Source: a virus. Taken from it: 64,000 nt of DNA. A program made the position numbers and the translations under genes. This document shows, piece after piece, positions 28,169-48,410 of this stretch. The notes beneath the pieces are model-generated. The model was not told the DNA's origin and did not search any database. It was given only the letters and a program-made list of their open reading frames with translations. Position 1 is the stretch's first letter, and each line of letters opens with the position of its first letter. The stretch lies in IMG/VR virus record IMGVR_UViG_3300015371_000016, positions 1-64,000 of that record; one strand, written 5' to 3'.

Positions 28169-28594
28169 CTACGTCGGCGGCTCCTTAAAATACGGGTGGA
28201 CTTGCATGATGTGCCCCTGCAAATCGATCCGCATGTCTTGCACTATGCGCGCCAGATTCGAAGTGCTGATGTCCATCGTCGCCAGTTTCTGATTGATCAG
28301 CGCTAGCGCCTCGCGGCCATTATCGCGCGCGCGTTCCATGTCTGACATTCGCTGCGCAAGATTCGTGAGCACCTCAGACTGCTGCGCGTTGGTCGCCATA
28401 CCGGCCGTAATCGCTTCGTTTGCCCGAATCGTCATCGCGCTCATCTGCGCTTCCATCCGGGTCATTCTTTCGGCGTCCCTATCGACGACGCCAGAGATGT
28501 GGCCAAAGCCGATCAACAAGCCGGCGGAAGTAAGCAGCGCCGTAAGGGCATACTTCGCCCACTCGGGAAGCCGTCGAATTGCTTCATCGACCAC
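28169..28594 (-). CDS. Membrane-anchored coiled-coil protein (holin/spanin-like?)
   Basis: N-terminal TM segment ALTALLTSAGLLIGFG followed by a coiled coil. Confidence 0.5.
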   Translation of the reverse strand: MVDEAIRRLPEWAKYALTALLTSAGLLIGFGHISGVVDRDAERMTRMEAQMSAMTIRANEAITAGMATNAQQSEVLTNLAQRMSDMERARDNGREALALINQKLATMDISTSNLARIVQDMRIDLQGHIMQVHPYFKEPPT

Positions 28595-28598
28595 CGCA

Positions 28599-30008
28599 TC
28601 AGGCCAAGCGGTCGAGCATGTCGCTCAATGCGACGTAGATTGAGGAAAGGCGATCGATCTGATCCACCCGCACGTCAGGCAACAACTCGGCATTCGCCAT
28701 GATAGGTTCTCCCTTAGCGATGCCCGTCGGCTCGCCTGATTTATCCCACACACCCAAACTACAGATAGCGAGATGATCGAGCAGCGACGGCTTGCCCTCG
28801 ATGAGCAGCGTCTTTCCGCCCTCAAGCTTCCGACTTTCGTTTACCTCAGGATCACGGAACATCACGTCGGGACTGGTCGATAGCGGATAGTCCAGCATAA
28901 GCTGCGCCGCGCCTTGGTCATAGATACGCGCCACGGCCCACACTTCATCCTCGACAATATAGGGCAGCATCAGCGCGCCGATAATGCGATTCTCGAATTC
29001 TTGCTGGTTCAGCACGTCGTCAGGCGGATGCTGCCAGATAACAGGCAATCCGTTGCAGCGGGCTAAGAAGTCTGGATTGAGGTACAGACCAGGATCGCGC
29101 CAGACGTGTTCATTCAGCTCGGGCCGATAGCTCGCGCCTGTTCCTGTGACACGAAGCGCGAAGAGCCATAGGTTCTCATACTGCTGAGGCGACGACAGGC
29201 GGCCCTCGGCGATGGCGCGCGCGATGTCCAGCTCGTCCATCCGGACCCGCTCTAGGACCAACCTGACGCCCGGGTGCATAGGTTCCGGCGGCTGGTCCAT
29301 CGGCGCCCATTCGAAGTCCTCTAGCTCGTCGCTGAGCGTCGGTTCGAATGGTTCCGCGACCCGCGCCTGGAACGTGCTGTAATCGGTCCCAGTCAGGCGA
29401 TCCCGCATCAGCATCGACATCTTGCCGTGCGTTACTGCGCCAATTTCCTCGCCTACTTCTCGGAGGGCGGCGGTCTCGGCACTCTCTCCGGCCTCGATGA
29501 TGCCTCCTGGGAACTCCCAGGTGCCACGCTCTCTGTGCTTGACGAATAGCGCTTGATCTCCTCCGTCACTCTTGCAGAAGAACATGACGCCGGCCGCGCG
29601 ACTCTGAGGATCGCCTGTGACAGGCGCCAGCGTCGCCACTTGCTCATCGGCCCGACCCTCCCTTTCGAAGAGCTTGCACCAATCCTCTGCTTTAATAACT
29701 CCTTCGACTAATGCGCAGCCGTCCGGCTCGATGAAGTGCTTGCAGATACCACAATGGCTCTGCGGCATGCCCTCACCGTAGTCCACAGCCTCTTTGGTCT
29801 GCTTCTCCGCATCATGCCGCTCAGCGGCGAATTCAGATGCCTCGCGCTCGTGCTCTACCTGTGAGATCGACGGCGGGACGTCGCTGGGAACGAAGACCCA
29901 CGTGAAGCCCTGATTGACGCCTCCAGTTGGGACTTGGACATACATGCTGTATTGTTCCTGTCCGGGAGGGTCAAGGCATGTCACTGTCAAACATAGCCCG
30001 CGAGCCAC
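28599..30008 (-). CDS. Prohead protease (DUF2213-like) fused to Nudix and HiPIP-like domains; start uncertain
   Basis: Nudix box GGIIEAGESAETAALREVGEEIG; RVTGTG...CNGLPVIWQHP...STSP...LLDHLAIC..GVWDK; CxxC...C...WC motif. Confidence 0.8.
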   Translation of the reverse strand: MARGLCLTVTCLDPPGQEQYSMYVQVPTGGVNQGFTWVFVPSDVPPSISQVEHEREASEFAAERHDAEKQTKEAVDYGEGMPQSHCGICKHFIEPDGCALVEGVIKAEDWCKLFEREGRADEQVATLAPVTGDPQSRAAGVMFFCKSDGGDQALFVKHRERGTWEFPGGIIEAGESAETAALREVGEEIGAVTHGKMSMLMRDRLTGTDYSTFQARVAEPFEPTLSDELEDFEWAPMDQPPEPMHPGVRLVLERVRMDELDIARAIAEGRLSSPQQYENLWLFALRVTGTGASYRPELNEHVWRDPGLYLNPDFLARCNGLPVIWQHPPDDVLNQQEFENRIIGALMLPYIVEDEVWAVARIYDQGAAQLMLDYPLSTSPDVMFRDPEVNESRKLEGGKTLLIEGKPSLLDHLAICSLGVWDKSGEPTGIAKGEPIMANAELLPDVRVDQIDRLSSIYVALSDMLDRLA

Positions 30009-31873: not shown

Positions 31874-32743
31874 TTAGGCTCTTTCTGCTTGCGCCGCAGC
31901 ATGCACGACATCCCTAGACGATGGCCCATACATATACGGCAGAGGCCCTAGCATAATGTGTCCGGTCTGCGTCGCGTAGCGCACCGCCTGGATGTCGGGA
32001 TGCGCAGCGAGCCATTCATTGATCGCGCTGTTGACCGTGCAATAGGCGATTACGTCGTCCACCAGGATGTATTTCGCTCGGCCGAAGCAGAGCGCGATGT
32101 CCTTCAGCGCGCCTTCGTGGCTGTGATTGCCGTCAATGTGCGCGAGATCGTACGTCCGTGACAAATGCGTCAAAGTGCCGCTATCGCACCGTGCAAGCCT
32201 CAGCTCGTGCTCCGGATACTCCTCGTGCAGCATCCCGTTCGCGTAGGTGATGTCGCCGATATCGATGCCGTGGTAGATCGTGCCGGCAGCACATCCTCGC
32301 AGCATCGCCCAGGCTGAGTAGCCGGCACGGACGCCGATTTCAAAGATGCTCTTCGGTCGCAATGCAGAGCATAGCTCGGTGTAGAGGCTGTAACTCGGCG
32401 GGAAAAGTTCGGTGCGCTGATACTCGTCGAGAAAGAAGTCGCCTTGAGCGAAAATGCGTTGCGGTAGCGTGCCGTTGCCTTCCCACTCCACCCACGGCAC
32501 CGCATTGAGCGCGTCCTGCGGCCCGATCGTGCGGATGAATACTATCTGCCGTTCGTCGCTGTCCCAGATTTCCAGGTCCATGATCGGATCGCCGTCCGTG
32601 ATCAGCTCACGAACCTCGAATCCAACATTGGACTCTTTGTGCGGAATACGATCGGACGGGCAAAGATAGACCGTGCAATCCTTGCCATTGCCGAGGCGCT
32701 GTCCTTGTCGTGCGATCTCGGCGAGGATTTCAGCGTCGGTCAC
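31874..32743 (-). CDS. Class I SAM-dependent methyltransferase (Methyltransf_24-like)
   Basis: FEIGVRAGYS motif I; DLAHIDGNHS...VDD; GTG start overlaps the MuF stop. Confidence 0.75.
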   Translation of the reverse strand: MTDAEILAEIARQGQRLGNGKDCTVYLCPSDRIPHKESNVGFEVRELITDGDPIMDLEIWDSDERQIVFIRTIGPQDALNAVPWVEWEGNGTLPQRIFAQGDFFLDEYQRTELFPPSYSLYTELCSALRPKSIFEIGVRAGYSAWAMLRGCAAGTIYHGIDIGDITYANGMLHEEYPEHELRLARCDSGTLTHLSRTYDLAHIDGNHSHEGALKDIALCFGRAKYILVDDVIAYCTVNSAINEWLAAHPDIQAVRYATQTGHIMLGPLPYMYGPSSRDVVHAAAQAERA

Positions 32744-34509
32744 GCAGGCAGTTTCTCCCGTGCGGTATCGAGCGCCTGCCTTCCACGTGCTGTCAACATG
32801 TCGTCGGGCAGATCGCGTAGGTGGTAGATGTAAACGTAATAGCAGCGGCAGTTGTGCGTTACGACTCCCTGGGCTACATACCAATTATTGATAGTTTGGA
32901 GATTGTAGACGTGCCCAGACCAAGGCCGGTTATTGATGTGGACCACATTGCTGCGCTTCGTAGCGAAGGGAAGGCTGTCTATGAAATTGCTGACGCCATT
33001 CACGTAAAGCCGACGACCCTCTGGGAGTGGCACAGGAATAGATGGATCGATCTCGGGCCAAAGTTGCCCCCTAGCCCGCGTATTTGTCTCGACCAACGCG
33101 CTATCCGCGCCGCCCATGACAGCGGTGAAAGTGTGCTCTCGATAGCCAATAGGTTTGGCGTATCGCGTTTGACGATCAAACGTCATATTCAGAAGGCCGG
33201 CGGACAACCTCGTACCCAGACTGAGGCAAATATCCTCATCGCTAGAAATAAGACGCCCGACCAACATAGTGCTGACGCCAAGGCTGCTCATCAAGCTAGA
33301 CGAGGCAAAAAGGCTTCGCGCACCGAATTGCTGCGTAGAGCAAGAAGTCAGTCCAAGATAATCGGGTACGGAGAGGCCGAACTTGTTACCGCTCTTACTG
33401 CTAAGAACCTGCGCCCCGACGTACAACGGCCTGTAGGTCCATACAATATCGATATCGCTATCGGTACCATCGCCGTGGAATTGCTGGCGCTGCCCACGCC
33501 GTGTCTCAGAGAACCCAAATTTCACGAGCGAGCTATATATTTGCTCAATGCTGGGTATTGCATCGTTATCGTCAGATTCCGTCCCGGCGACCTCTCCGGT
33601 AGCCTCGATGACGTGATCGCCATTATTCAAAGACTGAATAGGACGCCACCCGCACGGCGTAAGAATTGGATGATTTGGTGTCGCGCGGAGCGTTTTACCC
33701 GTGTCCGTAATCAGCTCGGTCAATTGACCGCTGTACCAGCGCCGATACGCTACTTCCACACCATCAGCGAATGGAAGCCTGGTATCTCCCGGTAAGCAGA
33801 ATATTTCTTCGCCCGGCTGAGTGATCTTGTCCGAGAAGCCCGCGTCTCCGGCCCGCATGAAGCCGCGTGTGTGCGCCCAGCTATTCCGGATCGCATACAC
33901 CTGCTGGTCGCGCTCCTTGTGGTCCTCGCGATAATCGTAGCCGGACTGGCGCCAGTGTGAGCGCCAGCGTGCGGCAATCGCTCCCGCGTCCTCTGCTAGG
34001 ATCGCCGAGACCGAAGCATTCAGCTTGTGACCCTGATCGATGATCACCCGTCGCTCGACGAACGGCAGCGAGGTCAGACCCTTGCGTATCTCCCGCTTCT
34101 GCTCTCTGCGGTCGAGCTGGTCGGTGCCGCCAATCGGGACACTGGTGGCCCAGCCCTGAAAGCGCCTCAGCGTGTCGTTGATCGCCTGCTCACGGTTCAG
34201 TTTGATCAGATCGGCTGACGCCTGGATGCGTCGGTTTAGTTCCGCCCGCAGCTTCGGCGCTATCCGCTGTACCGTAAAGCGATCTACACCTGGATGGCGG
34301 CGCAGCACCGTTCCTTCATCGATCAATCGCGTGTAGGTCGAGCCTAGCACCTTGCGCAGCTCTTCGGCCAATGAACGCTCTGACACCATGTCAGTAATGG
34401 CCGCCTCGCGGATCAGATCGATCCAATACTGCAAACGCTCTTCGGACTCATAGCCGTGCTCAGCGATATCGTTCAGCGCGTCAGTGACAACCTGGAAGAA
34501 CGTGGCCAT
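32740..34509 (-). CDS. MuF/SPP1 gp7-like minor head protein containing an intein
   Basis: IDQGHKL...WRSHWRQSGYDYREDHKERD...PGEEIF[intein]CRC. Confidence 0.85.
   Translation of the reverse strand: MATFFQVVTDALNDIAEHGYESEERLQYWIDLIREAAITDMVSERSLAEELRKVLGSTYTRLIDEGTVLRRHPGVDRFTVQRIAPKLRAELNRRIQASADLIKLNREQAINDTLRRFQGWATSVPIGGTDQLDRREQKREIRKGLTSLPFVERRVIIDQGHKLNASVSAILAEDAGAIAARWRSHWRQSGYDYREDHKERDQQVYAIRNSWAHTRGFMRAGDAGFSDKITQPGEEIFCLPGDTRLPFADGVEVAYRRWYSGQLTELITDTGKTLRATPNHPILTPCGWRPIQSLNNGDHVIEATGEVAGTESDDNDAIPSIEQIYSSLVKFGFSETRRGQRQQFHGDGTDSDIDIVWTYRPLYVGAQVLSSKSGNKFGLSVPDYLGLTSCSTQQFGARSLFASSSLMSSLGVSTMLVGRLISSDEDICLSLGTRLSAGLLNMTFDRQTRYAKPIGYREHTFTAVMGGADSALVETNTRARGQLWPEIDPSIPVPLPEGRRLYVNGVSNFIDSLPFATKRSNVVHINNRPWSGHVYNLQTINNWYVAQGVVTHNCRCYYVYIYHLRDLPDDMLTARGRQALDTAREKLPA
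32851..33798 (-). mobile_element. Intein (316 aa) in MuF
   Basis: Block A CLPGDT, block B ATPNHPILT, block F VYNLQT, block G THN followed by Cys+1; removal restores PGEEIF-CRC. Confidence 0.9.
32911..33795 (+). CDS. HTH + DUF559/Vsr-like endonuclease encoded antisense inside the intein
   Basis: GGAGA 8 nt before GTG 32911; two HTH motifs; GEAELVTAL...QRPVGPYNIDIAIGTIAVE nuclease-like core. Confidence 0.75.
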   Translation: MPRPRPVIDVDHIAALRSEGKAVYEIADAIHVKPTTLWEWHRNRWIDLGPKLPPSPRICLDQRAIRAAHDSGESVLSIANRFGVSRLTIKRHIQKAGGQPRTQTEANILIARNKTPDQHSADAKAAHQARRGKKASRTELLRRARSQSKIIGYGEAELVTALTAKNLRPDVQRPVGPYNIDIAIGTIAVELLALPTPCLREPKFHERAIYLLNAGYCIVIVRFRPGDLSGSLDDVIAIIQRLNRTPPARRKNWMIWCRAERFTRVRNQLGQLTAVPAPIRYFHTISEWKPGISR

Positions 34510-34524
34510 TCGTTCCTACTGACG

Positions 34525-34744
34525 TTGCGTTGCGTTGCGTTGCGTTGCGCAGCGGTGCGTGGCGGTGCGTGGCGCTGTGGAGAGGCGCGTTGCGGAGCGG
34601 AGCGATGCGGAGCGAAGTGGTGCGGTGCGGTGCGTTGCGTGGCGGTGCGCAGCGATGCAGCGCGGCGAGGTGCGGTGCGCGGCCGGGCGGAGCGTGGCGT
34701 GGCGTGGAGAAGCGCGGCGAGGCGTAGCGGTGCGTGGCGGCGCG
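34525..34744 (-). repeat. 5-nt periodic CGC-NN array (44 units)
   Basis: Plus strand NN-GCG in unbroken register; 37 of 44 triplets are GCG by hand count. Confidence 0.9.
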
Positions 34745-34750
34745 AAGACA

Positions 34751-35272
34751 TTACTTCCTGACATGAGAACGTCGTGGCGACAGACTGATCATCCATTCGA
34801 CTGCATTGAACGCGGGCAGATCGTTGGACGATCCGCGTGATACCTTCTCGATAGCTCGTACACCGCGCCTCGAAAGCGTCCATAGCGCCGCTTCGCGCAC
34901 GATCGAGTCCGTAGAAAACCGTGCCTGCTCGTCGAGATTTAAAGCGTCTAGCTCCACTACCTCTGCCTGCTTCCGGCCGGCGCCAAGTCGGTTATTGGCT
35001 CCCTTAAGATACCAAGAATGCTGTCGCTCGGCGATCTCTGGATCGGTCAGCCGACGCAGTCCGATCCTCGGACGGATGCAATCCCAAACTTGCAAATGTT
35101 CTCTCTCAAGTATGCGGCGCGCGGAAATCAGAAAGCCAGTAGAGGAAGTCACAGGTACGCCAGCTATCGACGATAGGTCTTCGTAAGTGAAGACTGATCC
35201 TTTCTCGTTCTGGGCCAGATATCGAACTAGGGCTGATGTAACCCCCGAACGCTCGAACTTGATCACGATCAA
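34751..35272 (-). CDS. Accessory protein of the RAMP/array cassette, possible winged-helix N-terminus
   Basis: 173-aa ORF filling the space between two arrays; AAGGA RBS (GTG 35266 is an alternative start). Confidence 0.7.
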   Translation of the reverse strand: MIVIKFERSGVTSALVRYLAQNEKGSVFTYEDLSSIAGVPVTSSTGFLISARRILEREHLQVWDCIRPRIGLRRLTDPEIAERQHSWYLKGANNRLGAGRKQAEVVELDALNLDEQARFSTDSIVREAALWTLSRRGVRAIEKVSRGSSNDLPAFNAVEWMISLSPRRSHVRK

Positions 35273-35280
35273 TCCTTATA

Positions 35281-35540
35281 TTGCGTTGCGTTGCGTGGCG
35301 GCGAGATGCGAGGCGTAGCGCGGCGTTGCGAGGAGGCGATCTGCGTTGCGTTGCGTTGAGGCGAGGTGCGAGGCGGTGCGGAGCGTCGCGTTGCGGTGCG
35401 CAGCGGCGAGCGGCGCTGAGGGGTGGCGCGTGGCGATGCGTAGCGTTGCGTGGCGACGAGCTGCGCGGCGGCGAGTTGCGAAGCGTAGCGTGGCGTCGAG
35501 CTGCGAAGCGGTGCGTCGCGAAGCGCTGCGGGGCGTGGCG
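35281..35540 (-). repeat. 5-nt periodic CGC-NN array (52 units)
   Basis: 260 nt in unbroken register; 41 of 52 triplets are GCG, most others GAG. Confidence 0.9.
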
Positions 35541-35546
35541 CCGATA

Positions 35547-36134
35547 TCAGACTTTTAACTCCTGCCACTCGAACTTGGTTACACGGAAGCGCCCATTGCT
35601 GCCGGCATTAGCGGGCCGTCCACGACCGAGGCCGACGATCATCCCGCCTGATCTGAGAGTATGCTCGAAGACCTCGGCAGTAATAATGTCATCGACAACC
35701 GTGAACTCAGCGACGCCGTGCCATTTATCGAATACCGGAAAGCGGCGCTTGACGCGCTTTCCTGATCCACGCACGCCGTCAGAATTGGCGTTGATCATAA
35801 CCATCTTGGCGTCGTCTGGCTTGAGCGGCTTGCCGTTCGCGATCGGCATATTCCCGTTGCAGATTACGCCGGAGGTAAAGAAGCTCTTATATGTCGCTCC
35901 GCGCCGGCCGGGCACCTTGTCGCCCAGCTTCTGCGCTGCGAGATCGATGCATTGCTTCAGTCCCATCTGTGGAACACAGACTTGCCCTTCCGCTGTCGTG
36001 GTGCACTTTTCCCGCCACGTCCGCGCGTCATAGTCATCGTGAGACTCGCGATCTAGCCACGGCGCTTCGTGCAGCGCGGATTGGCTATAGGGTGAGCCAG
36101 GAATCGATTCCAGATATGCTTTGCATGTCTTCAT
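35547..36134 (-). CDS. Stand-alone RAMP/Cas7-like protein
   Basis: N-terminal strand plus SPYSQ; VPQMGLKQCI helix; RVKRRFPVFDKW; C-terminal Gly-rich loop GGMIVGLGRGRPANAGSNGRFRV. Confidence 0.7.
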   Translation of the reverse strand: MKTCKAYLESIPGSPYSQSALHEAPWLDRESHDDYDARTWREKCTTTAEGQVCVPQMGLKQCIDLAAQKLGDKVPGRRGATYKSFFTSGVICNGNMPIANGKPLKPDDAKMVMINANSDGVRGSGKRVKRRFPVFDKWHGVAEFTVVDDIITAEVFEHTLRSGGMIVGLGRGRPANAGSNGRFRVTKFEWQELKV

Positions 36135-36174
36135 CCTAGATTATTCCTTGTTGCGTGCGTTTTTGTGACGGGAT

Positions 36175-36290
36175 GCGGTGCGGTGCGACCGAGTCGCGGT
36201 GCGGTGCGTTGCGTCGCGTTGCGATGCGAGGCGTCGAGGTGCGGAGCGATGCGTGGCGTTGCGGTGCGACGAGATGCGATGCGACGCGTC
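36175..36290 (-). repeat. 5-nt periodic CGC-NN array (~23 units)
   Basis: GCGNN units with one 1-nt register slip at 36190. Confidence 0.85.
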
Positions 36291-36469
36291 GATATCCCTC
36301 AGAGACCGGCCCGTCACGGCTGGTGCACGTTCCAGCGGCGCCCATAGCGCCACCGATCCCAAAGGAATTGGTAATATCTATCGTGCTCTCCAGGCACCGT
36401 GACGGCGGCGCTTTCGCCGGGCATGAAGGCACAACTTTATATGCGGGTCAAGCGGTTCCTTCTGTTATG

Positions 36470-36524
36470 GCGAAGCGTTGCGTTGCGTTGCGTGGAGTCG
36501 CGCGGTGATGCGTCGCGTGGCGGC
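36470..36524 (-). repeat. Short 5-nt periodic CGC-NN array (~11 units)
   Basis: gcgaa gcgtt gcgtt gcgtt gcgtg gagtc gcgcg gtgat gcgtc gcgtg gcggc. Confidence 0.8.
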
Positions 36525-36546
36525 GTAGTGACGCACCCTAGCAGAT

Positions 36547-38037
36547 TTATCTCGAACTAGCCAATTTGAAGCTAGGTGGCTTAAGCCCAGCCGCCATTCC
36601 GTTGGCGCCCTGGCCGCCCTGGTCCATAAGCAAGCTCTTCTGTTGCGCATCCTGCATATCCTGCGCATGCGCGGCAAGGGCCTCGGTATCCAGAGAAAGC
36701 GTGCCCTGGAAGATCAGCTCAGCTTTATTGACCTCGCTTTGCAGCCACTCGGTCAGCCGAGCCTTATTCTCGGGATCTAAGCTGCCATCGTTCAGTAGCT
36801 GGTAAAGCGCCAGCGCCGCCTTCATCTTTGTATCCTCAACCTTCACCTTCTCGCTGTCGGGCTCTTGGATCAGCGAAGGCCACTCGGCCGTGAAGTTATT
36901 CTGCCATGTCTGCAACGCTGAGGCGTAGCGGACGTTGCCATATTCCTGCGGATACTCCTGCTGGATGCCTCGATAGAATTCTTCGTTCCAGGCACGGTGT
37001 TGGACGATGTTGGTCAGCCACTCATAGACCGGGTCCATGCTCTCGCGGAAGCCGTCCACAAAGCGAGCAATCACCTTGGCATCCTCGGTGCCCTCGCCGA
37101 AGCCCTCGACCATCGTTTCGTTCTCTAGCAGGATCGCCGGCAGAGCCGCACCGGTCGCTAGATTCTTGAGAATATTATTCCTCGCGAATGTGCCGGCGCC
37201 GTCGATATTCGTTAGATTGAGCGAAGAGATATCTTCGTCCACGCCGATCGACAACACGTTGTCCGTGCGGCCCTCTTGCAGCATCGATCGCTTGCGAGCG
37301 AATATGTTGATCATCCCTCTATTAGCGATACCACCGGGTGCCTGCATCTTTGCGATCAGCAGTCCCGCTTTCCGGGCGATCATGTCGTCGGTGATCATGC
37401 AGTGCAGGTAGCTCTTGAGCGGATAAAGCACCCGCTGAAAAACCGATCTTCCCGTGAATCCGAACGCGCTGCCGGTATACGATATATACAGCGGCTCCTC
37501 GTTCATCACCACACACGTGCGGCTGGGATGGTAGGTCTCACCCTGCGTCGTTACCTGCATCGCCTTTTGGAACAGTGGCGAATTCGGGTCCTGGTCGAGC
37601 ATTAGGCTGCCGGCGGTATTCAGCGGATCGAGCACGTTCAGGAATATGCTGTCCGTCGCTAGAGTCCCTACTTCCAACGGTGCCGTCGCTGGCTTGCCCT
37701 CGATGCCTAGCACCACCGAAGAAAGGCCGTAGATGCGCGACTGCTTGATGACGTTCGCGATGACCTTGTCGGCCTTCATCGCACGCCACTGTTTCTGGAA
37801 TGCCTCGGCTACTCGCTCGGGCGCGCCTGAGACGGTGATCTCTCGGTCCTGGCTCTGTGCGAGCTGGATCGGCGCTTCGACCATCTTGGCGCCGATCGGA
37901 TGATACAGATAGATCAGCTTGCAGAGCTGGTAGCTCACGTCGCTGCCGGGCAGGATATCGTCAGCGGTCAGTATCTGCATCAGCGCCGGCCCGACATTGG
38001 AGCCGACGACCGAGATCGATGCTCCGCTACCGCTCAT
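36547..38037 (-). CDS. Portal protein (DUF1073-like)
   Basis: SYQLCKLIYLYHPIG...DPLNTAGS...FGFTGRSV...GFGEGTEDAK; follows TerL. Confidence 0.85.
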   Translation of the reverse strand: MSGSGASISVVGSNVGPALMQILTADDILPGSDVSYQLCKLIYLYHPIGAKMVEAPIQLAQSQDREITVSGAPERVAEAFQKQWRAMKADKVIANVIKQSRIYGLSSVVLGIEGKPATAPLEVGTLATDSIFLNVLDPLNTAGSLMLDQDPNSPLFQKAMQVTTQGETYHPSRTCVVMNEEPLYISYTGSAFGFTGRSVFQRVLYPLKSYLHCMITDDMIARKAGLLIAKMQAPGGIANRGMINIFARKRSMLQEGRTDNVLSIGVDEDISSLNLTNIDGAGTFARNNILKNLATGAALPAILLENETMVEGFGEGTEDAKVIARFVDGFRESMDPVYEWLTNIVQHRAWNEEFYRGIQQEYPQEYGNVRYASALQTWQNNFTAEWPSLIQEPDSEKVKVEDTKMKAALALYQLLNDGSLDPENKARLTEWLQSEVNKAELIFQGTLSLDTEALAAHAQDMQDAQQKSLLMDQGGQGANGMAAGLKPPSFKLASSR

Positions 38038-38038
38038 G

Positions 38039-39376
38039 TCAGAACCCCTTAGCGTCACCCAGCGCGCAGGCTATGCCGTAGCAAAAAGCGTCGAGCAGAT
38101 CGTCTTCGCGATTGTCGATCCCTACTCTGTAACCGACCACTTGGCCGAGAAGATGGTTCCGGCTGGTCTCATTATATATGAGTGTGCGATCATAGGCCGG
38201 GCCGGATATCTTGACCTCGCCACGGTGCACGTAGCCGCTCACTGAGACCGCCCTGGCGTCCTTCCCTAGTGCCACAAGCTGGCTGTCGATCGGATCGGCC
38301 GGCAGACCTCGGCGCCTTGCTTGCTGGAGCAGGATCGTGCCTGAGCCCTTGTCCTCGATGTAAGCGCCCGTCGCACCGAAGCGCGCGTGGCACTGTCTCG
38401 CCAGCTCTTCCATGCGCTGGTAGACACCCGGCAGCCAGACTTCGAGCAGCGAGCCTTCCACCTTAATAATATCGTAGTCCAGGATTATCAGCGGCGTGCC
38501 GACATGCTGGCTGCGAGCCCAGTAGATCACCGCTGTGCCGTCGTGCTGGCTTCTGTCCTTCAGCGCGGTATCGATCGTGCAGAAGACCAGATCACAGAAG
38601 GACGGGTAATCGACCGGCCTGTCGTTATCGAGCAGCGCAGGCAGCGGAAAGAACGCTGCTCCGCTAAAGTCCACGAACTCAGCGAGGTACTCTTGCTGAT
38701 AGACCAGCGGATGCGTCTCCGCCTCGATCTGCCGAAGCTCCTCTCTGGGCATGTAGGGATTAGCGCTGGTAGGCGCGTGATACTCGACGAAGCCCATGTC
38801 CGCGTTATTGCAGAGCTGCCAAAGGAAATTGTCTGGATCGATCCCGTTGGTGTTCGACAGCGCGATACAAGAACCGCGATAGTCCACTAGGGTCGGCCGT
38901 ATCGCCTTCCGCCAAATGTCCCTCATGTTCGACTTGGCGAAGGCCGCTTCGTCGATGACGACCTGATGGTAGCGTCGTGACCGGCCCGCCCGCTCATTCT
39001 CTAGCGACCAGAAATCTATGCGGCCGCCCGCATTGGTCCTGATCAGTCCGTCGTTCCTCGATGCCCTGGTGACACAGGGAGCCAACATTGTCGCCAGCTC
39101 AGAATATGCCTCGGCGATGAACTTATACTCCGGCGCGAACCATCCGACGAATTTACCGCGCAAGGCTGCGTCGGCCGCTATCGTCTGTCCTAATAGGGTC
39201 TTGCCCCACCGCCTGCCGCATCGGACGACCTTGAACCTCCCTGGCATTTGGAAGGCACGAATCTGATCTTCGTGAAGGACGGGCAAATATACTTCCCGAG
39301 TGGAACCGTCCGAGCTGCTGCCGCCTCTGTTGTATGGTAGCTCAACTCGGAAGACTTGCTCCGTTTCCTCGGTCAT
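38039..39376 (-). CDS. terL: Terminase large subunit
   Basis: Walker A CGRRWGKT, Walker B VVIDEAAF, nuclease motifs IDTA and DDLLDA. Confidence 0.95.
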   Translation of the reverse strand: MTEETEQVFRVELPYNRGGSSSDGSTREVYLPVLHEDQIRAFQMPGRFKVVRCGRRWGKTLLGQTIAADAALRGKFVGWFAPEYKFIAEAYSELATMLAPCVTRASRNDGLIRTNAGGRIDFWSLENERAGRSRRYHQVVIDEAAFAKSNMRDIWRKAIRPTLVDYRGSCIALSNTNGIDPDNFLWQLCNNADMGFVEYHAPTSANPYMPREELRQIEAETHPLVYQQEYLAEFVDFSGAAFFPLPALLDNDRPVDYPSFCDLVFCTIDTALKDRSQHDGTAVIYWARSQHVGTPLIILDYDIIKVEGSLLEVWLPGVYQRMEELARQCHARFGATGAYIEDKGSGTILLQQARRRGLPADPIDSQLVALGKDARAVSVSGYVHRGEVKISGPAYDRTLIYNETSRNHLLGQVVGYRVGIDNREDDLLDAFCYGIACALGDAKGF

Positions 39377-42508: not shown

Positions 42509-42584
42509 GCTTGTAATGCAGCAGGACCGGTCCCAAGCCCGGCGCCGCAGGGTTTCCCCCCCAAGCGGAATGCAGAGGGAAACG
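42509..42584 (+). ncRNA. Twister ribozyme 1 (P1 weak)
   Basis: TAA TGC AGC..CCGG TCCCAAGC CCGG..P5..GCA GAGGG. Confidence 0.75.
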
Positions 42585-42594
42585 AACCAAACTT

Positions 42595-42627
42595 GCGGCG
42601 GGCGCTCCGGCGTCCGTCGCTCTTTTT
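42595..42627 (+). terminator. Intrinsic terminator-like hairpin
   Basis: GCGGCGGGCGC-TCCG-GCGTCCGTCGC-TCTTTTT. Confidence 0.6.
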
Positions 42628-42658
42628 CCTGAAGAGACCCACAGAGGAGCACCGCTTT

Positions 42659-42925
42659 ATGAAGGGAATAATTCCGTATGCCCACGACAATATCCGCGGG
42701 AGTCGCGACCAGCCATGCGGGTTCGTCTATCTAGCGGAAAACGGTCACGGCATCGGACGCATCGGCTACGCTTACACGTCGTCTCTAGAGATTTTCAACT
42801 GCAAGGAAACTCCCAACGGAGTCAATATCGACGTGCTCCATCGTGTCCGTAGATATATCAAGCAGCAGTTTCCGCATTTGCCGAGAGAGCGTGACTTTAT
42901 GACGCAGTTACGGGATCAACCCTGA
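42659..42925 (+). CDS. Hypothetical early protein
   Basis: ATG after ACAGAGGAGCAC; MKGIIPYAHD... Confidence 0.55.
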   Translation: MKGIIPYAHDNIRGSRDQPCGFVYLAENGHGIGRIGYAYTSSLEIFNCKETPNGVNIDVLHRVRRYIKQQFPHLPRERDFMTQLRDQP

Positions 42926-42955
42926 CGACACCAGCGCGCTGTGACAGCGGCGCGC

Positions 42956-43005
42956 GCGGTCTGCGGATACTCTCCGCACTGAAGAGGCCACGAGGCCGAA
43001 ACCGC
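42956..43005 (+). ncRNA. Type III hammerhead ribozyme
   Basis: GCGG-TC / TGCGGA-tactc-TCCGCA / CTGAAGA / GGCC-acga-GGCC / GAAA / CCGC; predicted cleavage after C42961. Confidence 0.9.
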
Positions 43006-43029
43006 ACAGTGCATACAGAGGAACACCAA

Positions 43030-43293
43030 ATGTCGAAGATCATGGACCTACCGCAGGCAGTCAAGCGCGGATATCTACTGGCATGCCGGCCTCAAGGAGT
43101 CACACGAGCGCAGCTTACCAGTGAACTCGACAGCCAAATCGGCTGGAAGCGATATCTTGAGCGTATGGCAAAGTCAGACGCGCGCAGGCTTCTCAAGCCA
43201 AAGAAAAGCGACGACGGCTCCGTTCTATACCGTGTTGTTGGTCACAAAGCCGCAGCAAGCAGGGTCGGAGTAATGCGAAAGGTGGCTCGATAA
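43030..43293 (+). CDS. Small basic DNA-binding-like protein
   Basis: MSKIMDL...; similar to the C-terminus of 43324..43839. Confidence 0.6.
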   Translation: MSKIMDLPQAVKRGYLLACRPQGVTRAQLTSELDSQIGWKRYLERMAKSDARRLLKPKKSDDGSVLYRVVGHKAAASRVGVMRKVAR

Positions 43294-43323
43294 TCTTGGA
43301 ATACAAAAAGGGAAACGGGCACT

Positions 43324-43839
43324 ATGTCCTCGTCGCACTTTAGAAGCATGAACCAGCTTCGGTCAATGAATTGGGATAGCAAAGAGGCCGCAATCAAGGA
43401 ACTTAAGCGCAATGGCTTTGCTCCTCACGGAGAAGACTACACCATTGCCGAAGTTTCGGACGGTCATTACCAGATCGTTGATCGTGCTAATTCGTCAGAC
43501 GGCCACCAACAAGCAGCACGTAAAGAGCCGACAAAGAAAGCGGCCCCTTCTTCAAAGAAGGAAGTCGCGAAGAAGGAAGTCGCGAAGAAGGAAGCTCCGA
43601 AGAAGCAAGCGGAGCCTTCTTCTAAGAAGGGACCAGCTCCTCGCCAAATGTCCGCGTGGACCAAGCAAGCGCTGGAGATGGCAAAGAGCCCAAACGGAGC
43701 TAAGCGTGCTAAGCTTAACGAGCTTCGTGCCAATATCGGCTGGAAATCCTATCTAGCTCGCATTGGCAAAAAAGATGGTCTCGTGATGGTCGTCACTAAA
43801 GACGACGAAGGATTAGTCTACGCTCTAGTAAAGCGGTGA
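43324..43839 (+). CDS. Lys-rich histone-like protein
   Basis: KKEVAKKEVAKKEAPKK repeats plus a C-terminal domain. Confidence 0.65.
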   Translation: MSSSHFRSMNQLRSMNWDSKEAAIKELKRNGFAPHGEDYTIAEVSDGHYQIVDRANSSDGHQQAARKEPTKKAAPSSKKEVAKKEVAKKEAPKKQAEPSSKKGPAPRQMSAWTKQALEMAKSPNGAKRAKLNELRANIGWKSYLARIGKKDGLVMVVTKDDEGLVYALVKR

Positions 43840-43843
43840 TTTT

Positions 43844-43917
43844 TGTCGAAACACACGAGCGCCGAAGCGTTCGTGTGTCGCTGGGAGATGCCCTACCCAG
43901 CCTGAAGAGACAGGGCA
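43844..43917 (+). ncRNA. Type II hammerhead ribozyme with pseudoknot
   Basis: TGTC GAAA [stem III] TC GCTGGG-agaTGCCCta-CCCAGC CTGAAGA GACA GGGCA; predicted cleavage after C43879. Confidence 0.9.
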
Positions 43918-43934
43918 CTACAGAGGAACACCAC

Positions 43935-44228
43935 ATGACAAAGACAAACCCCAATAGACACCGAGCGGCCTTGTCCTATATCGAGGCGGTTAACGACCAG
44001 TTGCTCGATCTAGTGGCGCCGATCGAATGCTTGAGTAGCTTCGAAGCCGTGTCACCAGACGAGCTGGAGGCGCTGAAGAAGTGCACCAGCGATCTTCTAT
44101 CGGTCGTGACCATCCTTCGCTCTGTCCAGAGCTATCACGAGCGCAAGCAACGCGCCTCCTCGATAGTCGTCACCACTTCGTCGCAGGATATAGCGCGGGA
44201 GCGGCGAACGCGAGCCGGAGGAAGATGA
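43935..44228 (+). CDS. Hypothetical early protein
   Basis: ATG after ACAGAGGAACAC (MTKTNPNRH). Confidence 0.55.
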   Translation: MTKTNPNRHRAALSYIEAVNDQLLDLVAPIECLSSFEAVSPDELEALKKCTSDLLSVVTILRSVQSYHERKQRASSIVVTTSSQDIARERRTRAGGR

Positions 44229-44765
44229 TCCCGTATTTGCTTGTATTCTGGTTCCTCTTGCCTGTGTCACAGGCAGGAGACCCGCCTGTAAGCGAAACAA
44301 TGATCATCGAGATGTCGTCTAAGGAGCAGTGCGAACGTGCACAACGAGAACTGAACAAGCGTGAAGACTGTGTGGCGGTATGCCACAAGGTCCGCTCGTG
44401 AGATGGTTCACTCTGTGCAGCGTAATGGCGTGGACGATCAGCCTGACCTTCCAGCCCATTAAGCTAATCGCTGCACAGCTCGCGGCGCTGTCTGTTATGT
44501 TTATTGTTGGAACGAGACCGATCATGGGACCGGCGCACGAATTCCGCCGCGCCCTCAGAGAGGGAGTTAATGATGTCTCACGTATGCTCCTCAGAGCACG
44601 AACCGCGGTGGCTGATCGATGCTCGTGGAATAGAGTGCTGTCTGGTGTGCGATCTCTGCGAAGCGGAGAAGCGAAGGCAATACCGCCCGGAGATATTCAC
44701 TGATCCTGACTATGATCACTATGAAGAACTCTAGCGATTCAGGAAGCGGGGCTTCGGCCCCGCTG

Positions 44766-44827
44766 GCTTAATGCAGGAGTGCCGGTCGCAACCCCGGCCA
44801 CCGCATCGTGCGGGATGCAGAGCGAGC
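44766..44827 (+). ncRNA. Twister ribozyme 2
   Basis: GCT TAA TGC AGG..CCGG TCGCAACC CCGG..GCA GAGCG AGC; both pseudoknots covary relative to the other copies. Confidence 0.9.
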
Positions 44828-44841
44828 ACAGAGGAGCACCA

Positions 44842-45321
44842 ATGGCTAGAGCAATCGTGATCGATGCCGAGAAGCGCGAGCTGCGCTATATCGAGATACC
44901 AGACGGGTCCAATAGCCTTCCTATACTGCGCGACATTGTCGATGGATGGATCAGCGTCGCATATACGTGGAACGACAAGGATGTACTTTATGTGGATGAC
45001 GAAGGACTAATGAAAGGCCGAGAGCATTACTTCCGACTTTTCGATCGCACTGATGGCCAACCACTCGCGGGCAATGGCGTTATCCTCGGTGAGGAAGTGA
45101 TCGACGAAGAAGGCGACTTCGTGAATTACCTCGACACGCGACTGACCATCGAATTCCTTTCTAGTCGCGTTCAATTCTTGACTAAGCAACAAGCAATCGC
45201 GTGGTTCAAAGGCAACGCTTCAGAGCCGATGATCACGGTCACCACGATTGATGCTGACAAGATCAAAACCGAAGTCATCGCCCGATATGCGATTTTGATT
45301 CCCGAAGATGACGATGATTGA
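44842..45321 (+). CDS. DUF3846-like protein
   Basis: LRDIVDGWI...LYVDDEGL...LAGNGVILG. Confidence 0.65.
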   Translation: MARAIVIDAEKRELRYIEIPDGSNSLPILRDIVDGWISVAYTWNDKDVLYVDDEGLMKGREHYFRLFDRTDGQPLAGNGVILGEEVIDEEGDFVNYLDTRLTIEFLSSRVQFLTKQQAIAWFKGNASEPMITVTTIDADKIKTEVIARYAILIPEDDDD

Positions 45322-45348
45322 GAATCTACCGCGCCGCTTCGGTGGTGC

Positions 45349-45403
45349 GGACTTAATGCAGCCAACGGCGGTTCCAAGCCCGCGTGTAATGCAGAGGAAG
45401 CCC
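45349..45403 (+). ncRNA. Twister ribozyme 3
   Basis: CT TAA TGC AGC..GCGG TTCCAAGC CCGC..GCA GAGGA AG. Confidence 0.85.
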
Positions 45404-45422
45404 CTTACAGAGGAAACACCAC

Positions 45423-45659
45423 ATGAAGGAAGACTTACTGCAAGCTTCCGCTCGTAGAAAAGCGGCGGCCATGGAGCTGTTCAACAGTCCACGTGGTCGA
45501 TATCTACTAGGACAGGCCCTAGCGCTTGCCGTCAAAAGCATGCGCTCCGAACGCTATCCGGAGACCTCGAACATCGCGGACATGGAGCTGCTCGGCAACG
45601 AGATATTCGCGTTCGGCTATCGCCTAGAACTAGTGAAAGGGACACGCGCAACATGCTGA
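45423..45659 (+). CDS. Hypothetical early protein
   Basis: RBS motif followed by ORF. Confidence 0.55.
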   Translation: MKEDLLQASARRKAAAMELFNSPRGRYLLGQALALAVKSMRSERYPETSNIADMELLGNEIFAFGYRLELVKGTRATC

Positions 45660-46075
45660 TCATGTACCACTCGATGGATATCACTGATCTCGCACTAGCT
45701 GCTGCCCTTACCGGCGGCCCTAATCCTAATAGGGCCTATCTCGCCTACGATCTATTCCTCAAAGGCTACTACGAAGCGGTCGCCGGCACTAACGCTGAGC
45801 CGAACTTTATCGGTCAACTGAAGCTGCTTAAGATCACACAAAACAAGCGAGGCAAGTCCTGGTCTCGCTATCGTCACAAGAGCCTTCTGGTCAACGATCC
45901 GGTGCGCGCTGTGCTCGGCATACGAGAATCACAAACAGGCGACGTGATCGAGGAACAGAACAGTCGGGGCGTCATCAAGATGCGCTGGGTAGTCGATCTG
46001 ATCAAAGCACCCGAAGACGATCCTGTTTCGTGGATGGTCGGCTTCACGCCGATGCCCGGAGACTATTCCCACTGA
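45653..46075 (+). CDS. Hypothetical early protein
   Basis: Coupled ORF. Confidence 0.55.
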   Translation: MLIMYHSMDITDLALAAALTGGPNPNRAYLAYDLFLKGYYEAVAGTNAEPNFIGQLKLLKITQNKRGKSWSRYRHKSLLVNDPVRAVLGIRESQTGDVIEEQNSRGVIKMRWVVDLIKAPEDDPVSWMVGFTPMPGDYSH

Positions 46076-46102
46076 TTGAAGTCGGCGGGATTCCTTCTCG
46101 CC

Positions 46103-46160
46103 GATTTAATGCGGCCACCCATAGGGTGTCGGTCCCAAGCCCGGACAAACGCAGAGGGTC
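46103..46160 (+). ncRNA. Twister ribozyme 4 (with P3; P1 weak)
   Basis: TAA TGC GGC CACCC-ata-GGGTG TCGG TCCCAAGC CCGG..GCA GAGGG. Confidence 0.8.
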
Positions 46161-46184
46161 CTTCCATACAGAGGAAACATCACT

Positions 46185-48378: not shown

Positions 48379-48410
48379 CACTACCCGCACCGTGTCGGGG
48401 TCGGTGCGGG

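What the first reader, a model, noticed from the sequence alone, without database searches (positions are those of the whole stretch)
34525..36524. Stand-alone Cas7/RAMP-like gene with four 5-nt-periodic CGC-NN arrays: candidate RNA-guided system with a non-contiguous code
Seen: a ~2-kb cassette splits portal from MuF. It holds a 195-aa protein ending in a RAMP-type Gly-rich loop (GLGRGRPANAGSNGRFRV), a 173-aa gene, and four non-coding arrays of ~11, ~23, 52 and 44 pentamers. In each pentamer a fixed triplet (CGC on the gene strand) alternates with a freely varying dinucleotide, in unbroken register for up to 260 nt. Simple slippage would homogenise units, but here only the NN positions carry information. 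No CRISPR repeats, cas1 or cas3 are present. Known: Cas7 RAMPs polymerise on guide RNA with a fixed per-subunit footprint. Inference: one subunit binds each CGC and the NN bases jointly read a gapped target, possibly in a competing phage or the host. From memory (unverified), this resembles recently reported viral VIPR-type systems with GGY-NN units, so a CGC-NN form would be a distinct variant.
Basis: partly seen in the sequence, partly recalled or inferred. Interest (0 to 1): 0.96.

Follow-up and report, generated by a model that had tools for sequence, protein, structure and literature searches.

The report
Phage VIPR system with CGC-NN guides
This 77-kb phage carries a copy of VIPR, the CRISPR-like RNA-guided DNA silencer first described in 2026 preprints, but its guide repeats use C-G-C instead of G-G-Y as the fixed letters, so it is a real and tidy variant of a known kind rather than a new kind of system.

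Summary
Between the portal and MuF genes lie a 195-aa gene, a 173-aa gene and five blocks of 5-nt units (about 130 units). On the gene strand each unit is C-[G>T>A]-C plus two freely varying bases. The longest exact run is 40 units, against at most 6 in 200 shuffles.

The 195-aa protein folds as a Cas7/Csm3-type RAMP. It also matches phrog_4652, the family that holds the tested Vipr of phage SUSP1. All 65 loci fetched through homologues carry the same arrays in the same orientation. A sub-clade uses CAC-NN, and there one G-loop residue switches from Arg to Gln. The 173-aa gene is a conserved neighbour with a weak winged-helix-like match.

Across 56 non-redundant loci, NN strings match other loci far above shuffled controls only when one target base is skipped. 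The matched genes include rival vipr, vap, SNF2 helicase, RecT and integrase genes.

I found no credible target for this phage's own guides. RNA strand, processing and silencing are inferred, not shown.

This is a CGC-type variant of the published VIPR class. Earlier follow-ups in this scan reported the same variant in other genomes.

The parts
36470..36546 (-). Array D: the first vrRNA-like block, starting right after the portal stop codon. It has 11 clean CGC-NN units (36470-36524), preceded by degenerate units. On the gene strand it ends in (CGCAA)3 CGCTT CGCCA.
36296..36469 (-). Non-repeat spacer of about 170 nt between arrays D and C. Its role is unexplained. It folds only modestly better than shuffles and is not found in five close relatives.
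36153..36295 (-). Array C. On the gene strand it starts with ATATC, then has 20 CGC-NN units (36191-36290), a 1-nt register shift and about 5-6 more units. It ends about 15 nt before the vipr start codon.
35547..36134 (-). vipr: a 195-aa Cas7-like RAMP with one RRM core, a thumb and the G-loop G168-L-G-R171-G-R-P...N-G-R-F-R.
   Evidence: AF2 pLDDT 86.6. Csm3 6ae2_B Z 11.2 and type VII Cas7 Foldseek E 2.5e-6. phrog_4652 E 1.7e-7, the same family as SUSP1 Vipr at E 1.4e-96. 396 homologues.
35343..35548 (-). Array B1. Its start mark ATATC overlaps the vipr TGA stop codon. It has 40 CGC-NN units and ends in CTCAA CGCAA CGCAA.
35278..35342 (-). Array B2: start-like AGATC, then 11 units ending in (CGCAA)3. 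This is the size of a single published vrRNA. The vap ribosome-binding site and start codon follow.
34751..35272 (-). vap-like accessory gene of 173 aa. The N-terminal part is winged-helix-like (helix-strand-helix-helix-strand-strand, residues 10-74), followed by a helical hairpin and a conserved C-terminal motif SNDLPAFNAVEW.
   Evidence: 76 homologues. Found next to vipr in about 40 of 64 loci by tblastn. AF2 pLDDT 77. Weak winged-helix matches at Z 6.2-7.6.
34522..34750 (-). Array A. It begins 2 nt after the vap stop codon with GTC-TT, has 45 units, and ends in (CGCAA)5 about 13 nt before the start codon of the next gene.

Best explanation
This is a VIPR (Viral Interference Programmable Repeat) system carried by a phage. 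The proposed mechanism has four steps.

1. The cassette (array D, array C, vipr, arrays B1 and B2, vap, array A) is transcribed on the gene strand, together with the portal-to-MuF structural operon.

2. Vipr is a minimal Cas7-like RAMP. It polymerises along each array with one protomer per 5-nt unit. It holds the fixed C-G-C triplet and leaves the two variable bases exposed.

3. A run of about 10-13 units acts as a guide and is closed by 2-5 constant CGCAA units. The guide pairs with double-stranded DNA that carries the same dinucleotides separated by one skipped base. Targets therefore have a 3-nt rhythm that usually puts the skipped base on the codon wobble position.

4. Binding blocks transcription of genes in competing phages or other mobile elements. 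The winged-helix-like Vap assists.

What is shown here:
- the fold of Vipr and its sequence homology to a tested Vipr;
- strict co-occurrence and fixed orientation of the arrays;
- covariation between protein clade and fixed triplet;
- a family-level excess of one-base-skip matches to rival phage genes.

What is inferred from the published SUSP1 and P. fulva work:
- that the RNA is made from the gene strand;
- filament assembly;
- DNA (not RNA) binding and silencing;
- the role of Vap.
For: 1. RAMP fold. The AF2 model has pLDDT 86.6 and pTM 0.83. Every top match is a Cas7-family subunit: Csm3 6ae2_B at Z 11.2, rmsd 2.9 over 147 residues, then Cmr, type VII Cas7 and gRAMP. 88 PDB chains score E <= 1e-3.

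2. Homology to a tested Vipr.
- SUSP1 (KT454805) has a 195-aa gene at 28474-29061 flanked by GGY-NN arrays on its own strand. That gene scores E 1.4e-96 on phrog_4652.
- The window protein scores E 1.7e-7 on phrog_4652, and clade members score 5e-12 to 1e-7.
- Direct BLASTP gives E 2e-4 across the G-loop, and hhalign gives E 1.5e-4.

3. Arrays travel with the gene. All 65 loci fetched through the protein carry pentamer arrays beside it, with C-N-N-C-G on the coding strand.

4. Covariation. The residue aligned with SUSP1 D177, which reads a fixed guanine (10.64898/2026.04.26.720927), is Arg in 56 of 56 loci with C-G-C. It is Gln in 6 of 6 loci with C-A-C.

5. Gapped code. The test used 56 non-redundant loci and 5658 units. 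Hits of at least 19 of 22 NN bases, observed against shuffled controls:
- skip 0: 3 against 3.2
- skip 1: 27 against 3.2
- skip 2: 6 against 2.4
- the skip-3 excess is an artefact, because 24 of its 25 hits of 20 or more fall in one unmasked reverse array.

6. The top targets make sense. They are SNF2 helicase, the Vap C-terminus, the Vipr G-loop of the CAC clade, RecT, integrase, an excisionase-like regulator and a DNA methyltransferase. Many are in frame with the skipped base at wobble, and both DNA strands are hit.

7. Gene-strand reading.
- The arrays fill the gaps of a same-strand operon. They start 0-8 nt after stop codons and end just before ribosome-binding sites.
- Matched guides start at the gene-strand 5' end of an array and are followed by constant CGCAA units.
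- The strongest separator hairpins are more stable in sense in 10 of 11 cases (my count).
Against: - No RNA, binding or silencing data exist for this locus.
- The canonical GGY triplet is not present.
- No credible target was found for this phage's own guides.
- The window's arrays are long (40 and 45 units) and lack the structured 3' tails of SUSP1 vrRNAs. How they are cut into guides is therefore unknown.
- The window Vipr has Gly where its relatives have an aromatic residue at the position aligned with SUSP1 W178.
- The Arg/Gln covariation rests on one clade, so it is a single evolutionary event.
- The wobble-phase check by longest open frame was only 11 of 25, because high-GC DNA has many spurious open frames.
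- The winged-helix match of Vap is weak, below Z 8.
Confidence: 0.85

Rival explanations
1. It is the same VIPR-type system, but the guide RNAs are made from the opposite strand. They would then read G-C-G-NN, purine-rich like the canonical GGY, and be antisense to vipr and to the structural operon.
For: Canonical Vipr grips two guanines per unit (10.64898/2026.04.26.720927), and the + strand offers G at positions 1 and 3. Target prediction cannot decide, because both strand hypotheses give the same set of DNA matches (my reasoning, applied). Over all 106 separators, the antisense fold energy is slightly lower on average.
Against: SUSP1 vrRNAs lie on the vipr strand. Orientation relative to vipr is fixed in every locus fetched. 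The arrays sit in the gaps of a same-strand operon, with no room for outward promoters. An antisense RNA would carry the constant units at its 5' end and the guide at its 3' end, the reverse of the published layout. Strong separator hairpins favour the sense strand in 10 of 11 cases. One is a G-U-containing hairpin followed by TTT on the gene strand (L064). The Arg-to-Gln switch paired with G-to-A fits the usual Arg-G and Gln-A preferences on the gene strand (this is an inference).
Confidence: 0.1
2. It is a RAMP-plus-array system that works differently from published VIPR. It might bind or cut RNA as type III Cas7 does, or recruit another activity, rather than silence DNA by a gapped R-loop.
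For: The nearest solved folds are RNA-targeting Csm3, Cmr4 and type VII Cas7. Among wobble-consistent hits the guide is more often antisense to the gene (8 cases) than sense (3 cases), as RNA targeting would need.
Against: Good hits also lie in the mRNA-sense orientation, where pairing with mRNA is impossible. Examples are the SNF2 helicase hit at 21 of 22, the vipr G-loop and the methyltransferase. The protein is homologous to a Vipr shown to bind dsDNA (10.64898/2026.04.26.720920). The one-base-skip signature is the published DNA-recognition rule.
Confidence: 0.04
3. The arrays are DNA-level repeats, such as a slippage microsatellite or protein-binding iterons, and have no guide function.
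For: They are short tandem units in a GC-rich genome, and Tandem Repeats Finder reports them as such.
Against: Slippage would homogenise the units, yet two of the five positions carry about 1.9 bits each (my arithmetic on the counts). The arrays occur only beside vipr in the genome and in all 65 fetched loci. Their NN strings match rival phage genes at a 3-nt rhythm above controls.
Confidence: 0.01

Closest known systems
Type II VIPR of Escherichia phage SUSP1 and a Pseudomonas fulva prophage (Vipr, vap1, GGY/NN vrRNAs; bioRxiv 10.64898/2026.04.26.720920, 10.64898/2026.04.26.720927, 10.64898/2026.10.15.759431)
   Same: - Both have a 195-aa single-RRM RAMP in the same PHROG family (phrog_4652), with a shared G-x-G-x-aromatic-R-P...G-R-F G-loop.
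- In both, a small accessory gene lies directly downstream.
- Both have 5-nt units of three fixed and two variable bases on the vipr strand, on both sides of the genes.
- Both are phage-borne and lack cas genes or a CRISPR array.
- At family level, targets follow the one-base-skip rule, often with the skipped base at the codon wobble position. They include rival vipr genes and recombinases.
   Different: - The fixed triplet is C-G-C, which is GGY with the first G replaced by C.
- Residues aligned with the G1 readers of SUSP1 differ: D177 becomes Arg and H17 becomes Ser.
- The window's arrays are long and continuous (40-45 units). They are punctuated only by CGCAA runs and RTC start units, and lack a structured or pseudoknotted 3' tail.
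- The accessory protein shows no detectable similarity to SUSP1 vap1 (phrog_5926).
- The cassette sits inside the head-morphogenesis module.
- Nothing has been tested experimentally.
Non-canonical VIPR arrays reported from a genomic language model (bioRxiv 10.64898/2026.10.21.760802: 21 clusters with triplets such as GAC/NN, CAC/NN, WGT/NN, TGH/NN), and the 'YNNNG' repeats noted in the discovery paper's methods
   Same: The period is 5 nt, with an alternative fixed triplet next to a Vipr-like fold. The CAC/NN pattern named there is what I see in the sister clade (L050-L056). C-N-N-C-G is compatible with 'YNNNG'.
   Different: CGC/NN is not named in any text I could read, and the figures that list the motifs are not held. 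I therefore cannot tell whether this exact clade is already catalogued. Those papers give no targets, no tail grammar and no protein-triplet covariation for it.
Cas7 backbone subunits of class 1 CRISPR-Cas (Csm3, Cmr4, type VII Cas7)
   Same: They share the RRM core, thumb and glycine-rich loop (Z up to 11.2). Like Vipr, they are presumed to polymerise on a guide RNA with a fixed footprint per subunit.
   Different: Sequence identity is only 8-14%. There is no CRISPR array, Cas1, Cas5, Cas6, Cas10 or other cas gene. The footprint is 5 nt with three bases sequestered, against 6 nt with one base flipped. The guide is written into the repeat units themselves rather than held in a spacer.

Membership tests
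VIPR system | Vipr protein: a minimal RAMP with one RRM, a glycine-rich loop and a thumb | tested here: met
   AF2 pLDDT 86.6. The top matches are all Cas7-type RAMPs: 6ae2_B Z 11.2, 6s6b_I Z 11.2 and 8yhe_J at Foldseek E 2.5e-6. The G-loop is GLGRGRP...NGRFR.
VIPR system | Sequence homology to an experimentally characterised Vipr | tested here: met
   SUSP1 Vipr scores E 1.4e-96 on phrog_4652. The window protein scores E 1.7e-7 on the same profile, and clade members score 5e-12 to 1.3e-7. Pairwise BLASTP gives E 2e-4, and hhalign gives E 1.5e-4 at probability 52%.
VIPR system | vipr flanked by tandem 5-nt units of three conserved and two hypervariable bases | tested here: met
   About 130 units in five blocks. 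The same holds in 65 of 65 fetched loci.
VIPR system | The conserved triplet is GGY (canonical definition) | tested here: not met
   The triplet on the gene strand is C-G-C (84% G, 13% T and 3% A in the middle), and no cyclic shift of either strand gives GGY. The discovery paper allows 'a related consensus' and the repeats NNNGG, YNNNG and NNNNG. A later preprint reports CAC/NN and others.
VIPR system | Phage or provirus context, with a minimal locus lacking cas genes and a CRISPR array | tested here: met
   The genome is a 77-kb virus record, 93% complete, with the cassette between portal and MuF. There is no Cas1 and no CRISPR-like repeats.
VIPR system | A conserved accessory (vap) gene next to vipr, predicted to act on DNA | tested here: inconclusive
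   The conserved neighbour is clear: 76 homologues, found directly downstream of vipr in about 40 of 64 loci. The DNA-binding fold is only suggested by weak winged-helix matches at Z 6.2-7.6. There is no similarity to SUSP1 vap1.
VIPR system | vrRNA on the vipr strand, with the guide units 5' of a constant 3' tail | tested here: inconclusive
   The sequence supports it: operon packing, guides at the gene-strand 5' end, CGCAA tails, and T-rich or hairpin tails in relatives. There is no RNA evidence, and the window's arrays lack a structured tail.
VIPR system | Targets recognised through the NN bases with one skipped base | tested here: met
   This is met at family level only: 27 hits of at least 19 of 22 bases against 3.2 in shuffles for skip 1, with no real excess for skips 0, 2 or 3. 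For the window's own guides no target was found, so the rule is untested for this locus.
VIPR system | vrRNA expression, Vipr-vrRNA complex formation and transcriptional silencing | not testable with these tools
   This needs small-RNA sequencing, pull-down and reporter assays.
CRISPR-Cas class 1 effector (Cas7 as a cas gene) | Cas7 encoded with other cas genes and a CRISPR repeat-spacer array | tested here: not met
   There is no Cas1 in the genome and no repeat-spacer array in the window. The neighbouring genes are portal, vap and MuF.

The most novel reading that the evidence does not exclude
The CGC/CAC clade could be a naturally orthogonal branch of VIPR in which a single G-loop residue sets the middle letter of the fixed triplet: Arg for G and Gln for A. 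That would be a simple protein-RNA recognition code. It could be used to build VIPR effectors that do not cross-load each other's guides. It might also explain how co-infecting phages keep their guide sets private or steal each other's. In addition, the tail-less 40-45-unit arrays of this phage may be read as staggered or very long filaments rather than as discrete 9-16-unit vrRNAs.
Probability: 0.35. Interest if true: 0.6.

Novelty: new variant of a known kind. Interest (0 to 1): 0.45.

Why it matters
VIPR is a months-old class of RNA-guided DNA recognition, and only GGY-type systems have been tested so far.

This locus belongs to a large clade, with at least 396 protein clusters. The clade keeps the published targeting logic but changes the letters that the protein grips. 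It also contains a sister group in which one triplet letter and one G-loop residue change together.

That gives a concrete, testable handle on how Vipr reads its repeat, and on whether different VIPR systems are insulated from one another.

The predicted targets in relatives are rival vipr, vap, recombinase and helicase genes. This extends the phage-against-phage picture from enterobacterial phages to soil phages of likely alphaproteobacterial hosts.

For this particular phage it is an annotation result. About 2 kb of apparent junk between the portal and MuF genes is an inserted, mobile defence or competition cassette.

Tried and rejected

2. Pfam gave nothing significant for the 195-aa and 173-aa proteins. 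A sequence search of the PDB with the 195-aa protein found nothing. tblastn of that protein against GenBank phages gave no match.

3. Rfam found nothing in 34300-36800 at E <= 1, so there is no ribozyme between the arrays. It also found nothing in the whole window at gathering scores.

4. Targets of this phage's own guides.
- No hit of at least 17 of 20 bases above controls in its own genome or the 65 loci.
- No hit from this phage's own guides at the 18-of-22 cut-off in five whole related contigs.
- Exact one-base-skip patterns were scanned in IMG/VR (6 scans), JGI metagenomes (1) and GTDB genomes (1).
- Those scans gave only chance-like hits. One sequence in 34-35% GC giant-virus contigs did not extend. 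One 43% GC contig had an in-frame stop. Two 40-44% GC contigs had the skipped base off the wobble position.

5. Skip-3 'hits' were an artefact of an unmasked reverse-oriented array in L058. Hits from one L003 guide were low-complexity GC repeats.

6. The strand call from mean fold energy over all separators was uninformative: 33 sense against 44 antisense. Only the strong hairpins are informative.

7. The promoter and terminator scan gave numbers no higher than in shuffles.

8. The 170-nt spacer at 36296-36469 has z-scores of -2.1 and -1.9 on the two strands and is absent from five relatives, so it is left unexplained.

9. The 98-aa ORF at 36136-36432 reads through array C and has no family, so I treat it as spurious.

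10. I did not run complex prediction, because a pass would not have changed my odds.
Full report
**1. What is in the sequence**

Window 34510-36546 lies between a portal gene (36547-38058, PF06381, E 2e-16) and a gene at the MuF position that carries an intein (32740-34509). All genes are on the - strand.

The stretch holds a 195-aa gene (35547-36134), a 173-aa gene (34751-35272) and runs of 5-nt units.

On the + strand the units read G-H-G-N-N:
- 34522-34746: 45 units
- 35283-35337: 11 units
- 35343-35542: 40 units
- 36191-36290: 20 units, plus about 5-6 units shifted by one base
- 36470-36524: 11 units

Position 1 is G in 126 of 127 units. Position 3 is G in 125 of 127. Position 2 is C 107, A 16, T 4. 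Positions 4 and 5 are close to random, with all 16 dinucleotides present.

The longest exact run is 40 units. Shuffles give a mean of 4.1 and a maximum of 6 over 200 trials. The 77,127-bp genome has no other such array.

There is no Cas1 in the genome and no CRISPR-like repeat in the window.

On the gene strand:
- The arrays begin 0-8 nt after the stop codon of the gene before them. The ATATC start of array B1 overlaps the vipr TGA.
- They open with a deviant RTC unit (ATATC, AGATC, ATGTC).
- Most end in two to five CGCAA units, just ahead of the next ribosome-binding site. Array C instead ends in a frame-shifted, degenerate tract.

**2. The protein**

An AlphaFold2 model built on 30 homologues has mean pLDDT 86.6 and pTM 0.83.

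Both fold searches are filled with Cas7-family subunits:
- Csm3 6ae2_B: Z 11.2, rmsd 2.9 over 147 residues
- Cmr-beta 6s6b_I: Z 11.2
- type VII Cas7: Foldseek E 2.5e-6
- gRAMP, and type I and type IV Cas7

Sequence identity to these is only 8-14%, and Pfam has no model for the protein.

The family is large. 396 clusters score E <= 1e-3, nearly all 195 aa long, from soil metagenomes and from Acetobacteraceae and Xanthobacteraceae MAGs.

**3. The literature**

VIPR systems were described in April 2026 (10.64898/2026.04.26.720920). Their parts and properties are:
- a minimal RAMP called Vipr;
- an accessory vap gene;
- vrRNAs made of 9-16 YNNGG units followed by a 3' tail;
- recognition of dsDNA through the NN bases with one base skipped;
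- mostly viral hosts;
- natural targets in satellites, prophages and other VIPR systems.

The structure paper (10.64898/2026.04.26.720927) shows one protomer per repeat. H17 and D177 read G1, R138 and W178 hold G2, and R179 helps form the pocket for Y3.

The discovery paper's methods mention alternative repeats NNNGG, YNNNG and NNNNG.

An October 2026 preprint (10.64898/2026.10.21.760802) reports 21 clusters with non-canonical triplets such as GAC/NN, CAC/NN, WGT/NN and TGH/NN. CGC is not named in its text, and the figures are not held.

**4. Direct link to a tested Vipr**

I fetched SUSP1 (KT454805). The accession came from my memory, and the record returned confirmed it as phiSUSP1.

Its 195-aa gene at 28474-29061 is flanked by GGY-NN tracts on its own strand. 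I identified it as vipr from that layout and from residue numbers that fit the structure paper.

That protein scores E 1.4e-96 on phrog_4652. The window protein scores E 1.7e-7 on the same profile (residues 38-186), and three distant clade members score 5e-12 to 1.3e-7.

Pairwise BLASTP aligns the C-terminal 66 residues at E 2e-4. hhalign gives E 1.5e-4 at 52% probability.

In that alignment:
- SUSP1 D177, W178 and R179 fall on R171, G172 and R173 of the window protein. Position 172 is F, Y or W in relatives.
- By eye, the PFLSH motif of SUSP1 aligns with PYSQS, which puts H17 opposite the invariant S19.

Read in the same register, C-G-C differs from GGY only in its first letter.

**5. Arrays travel with the gene**

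Scans of IMG/VR and GTDB genomes with the protein alignment returned 59 and 6 loci.

Every one has pentamer arrays beside the gene, with C-N-N-C-G on the coding strand.

L050-L056 (40-44% identity, six non-redundant loci) use C-A-C instead.

Four protein positions separate the two groups:
- Y16 to L
- G76 to D
- G89 to D
- R171 to Q

Over all loci with a readable G-loop, Arg goes with a middle G in 56 of 56 and Gln with a middle A in 6 of 6.

Arg-guanine and Gln-adenine are the usual pairings in protein-nucleic acid recognition. This fits direct reading of the middle base on the gene strand. It remains an inference, and it rests on a single clade.

**6. The accessory gene**

The 173-aa protein has 76 homologues of 167-176 aa. 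By tblastn it lies directly downstream of vipr in about 40 of 64 loci.

Its model (pLDDT 77) has a helix-strand-helix-helix-strand-strand N-terminal domain and a helical hairpin.

The fold matches are weak: MAGE/NSE1 winged helix Z 7.6, PurR N-terminal domain Z 6.6, NaeI Z 6.2.

It shows no similarity to SUSP1 vap1, which belongs to phrog_5926.

The published types II, VI and VII also have predicted DNA-binding Vaps. I cannot assign a type here.

**7. Do the NN strings mean anything?**

I took the NN strings of 295 arrays (5658 units) from 56 non-redundant loci. I searched them against the same loci with arrays masked (1.03 Mb, counting both strands). Targets were modelled with 0-3 skipped bases, and controls had the NN order shuffled within each array.

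| Skipped bases | Hits of at least 19 of 22 | Shuffled control |
|---|---|---|
| 0 | 3 | 3.2 |
| 1 | 27 | 3.2 |
| 2 | 6 | 2.4 |
| 3 | 31 | 3.2 |

For skip 3, 24 of the 25 hits of 20 or more fall in one unmasked reverse-oriented array in L058, so that excess is an artefact.

The 27 skip-1 hits come from about 16 distinct guides.

The best hits are:
- several guides of L043, L046 and L047 against each other's SNF2-helicase gene (up to 25 of 26 bases);
- an L008 guide against the conserved C-terminus of vap in L026, L021 and L007;
- an L043 guide against the G-loop codons of the CAC-clade vipr in L053;
- guides against a RecT-like gene, a tyrosine integrase, an excisionase-like regulator, a DNA methyltransferase and a TSCPD-domain gene.

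Three further points about these hits:
- Where the gene is recognisable, the skipped base falls on the wobble position.
- Both DNA strands are hit, which argues for DNA rather than mRNA recognition.
- Matches typically start at the first unit of an array on the gene strand, run for 10-13 units, and stop before the constant AA units. This is the published guide-then-tail order.

**8. This phage's own guides**

No window guide reaches the cut-offs used (17 of 20 or 18 of 22 bases) above controls. This holds for its own genome, the 65 loci and five whole related contigs.

Nine exact-pattern scans of IMG/VR, JGI metagenomes and GTDB genomes gave only chance-level hits. These were low-GC contigs with no extension, or with the skipped base off the wobble position.

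Exact patterns are a blunt tool, since natural matches tolerate 10-20% mismatch. This is an absence of evidence only.

The relatives do not share this phage's portal, terminase or MuF genes near their cassettes. The cassette therefore moves between unrelated phage backbones.

**9. Which strand is the RNA?**

Target prediction cannot tell, because both hypotheses give the same DNA matches. The gene strand is favoured by:
- the SUSP1 precedent;
- the fixed orientation in every locus;
- the tight packing inside a same-strand operon;
- the guide-then-tail order;
- the strongest separator hairpins in relatives, which are more stable in sense in 10 of 11 cases, one with a G-U pair and a following T-run;
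- the Arg/Gln pairing with G/A.

I put about 85-90% on the gene strand.

**10. Verdict**

The locus is a VIPR system in the broad published sense. It fails only the narrow 'GGY' definition. It differs in tail architecture, array length, Vap family and genomic position.

It is a new variant, or possibly an already catalogued sub-clade, of a known kind.

Earlier follow-up notes of this scan describe CGC-type VIPR loci in other genomes. They agree with this reading, but I did not count them as evidence.

Noticed in passing
window 32740-34509 (- strand): The gene after the cassette, at the MuF position, carries an intein. Pfam Intein_splicing scores E 1.4e-8 over residues 249-553, just under the gathering score. 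The MuF identity itself was not confirmed by Pfam here.
   Followed up: no
window 36296-36469: A spacer of about 170 nt between arrays D and C has a long-range stem (CCGTCACGG...CCGTGACGG). It folds slightly better than shuffles (z -2.1 sense, -1.9 antisense), has no Rfam match and is absent from five close relatives. It could be a leader, a promoter region or a remnant.
   Followed up: partly
window 53141-53230: There are two tandem 45-nt copies (91% identical), each made of 21-nt sub-repeats containing CTGCAAATCTTGCA. This looks like iterons or operators.
   Followed up: no
window 11864-11896 (inside - strand ORF 11476-12246, phrog_7750, unknown function): A guide of relative L020, whose Vipr is 82% identical, matches this phage at 19 of 22 NN bases with one base skipped and in the wobble-consistent frame. 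At this score about 3 hits are expected by chance over the whole test, so it is only a lead that a sister phage may target this one.
   Followed up: partly
G005 (contig of L058) 11477-11586: One relative has a 21-unit array in the opposite orientation to its other arrays and to its vipr gene. It produced spurious skip-3 'targets' in my test. It may be an inverted or captured guide block.
   Followed up: no
L001, L007, L029, L062, L064, L057 (separators between arrays): In many relatives each 14-25-unit array ends in ...CGCAA CG plus a conserved 17-24-nt T-rich tail (for example CGATTCATTTATGGCATTTC or CGTTTCTTTTGGCAATTTA) or a strong hairpin. The window and its nearest relatives have no such tails. 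Tail type therefore varies within one Vipr clade.
   Followed up: partly
window 1-64000: An Rfam scan of the whole window at gathering scores returned no family at all. An earlier first-reader note lists twister and hammerhead ribozymes at 42509-48468, and that claim finds no support at this threshold.
   Followed up: partly
window 35619-35621 (codon for Vipr residue 172): The window's Vipr has Gly at the G-loop position that is F, Y or W in the other loci with a readable G-loop. This position aligns with W178 of SUSP1, which stacks on a fixed guanine. It might weaken or alter repeat binding in this particular phage.
   Followed up: no
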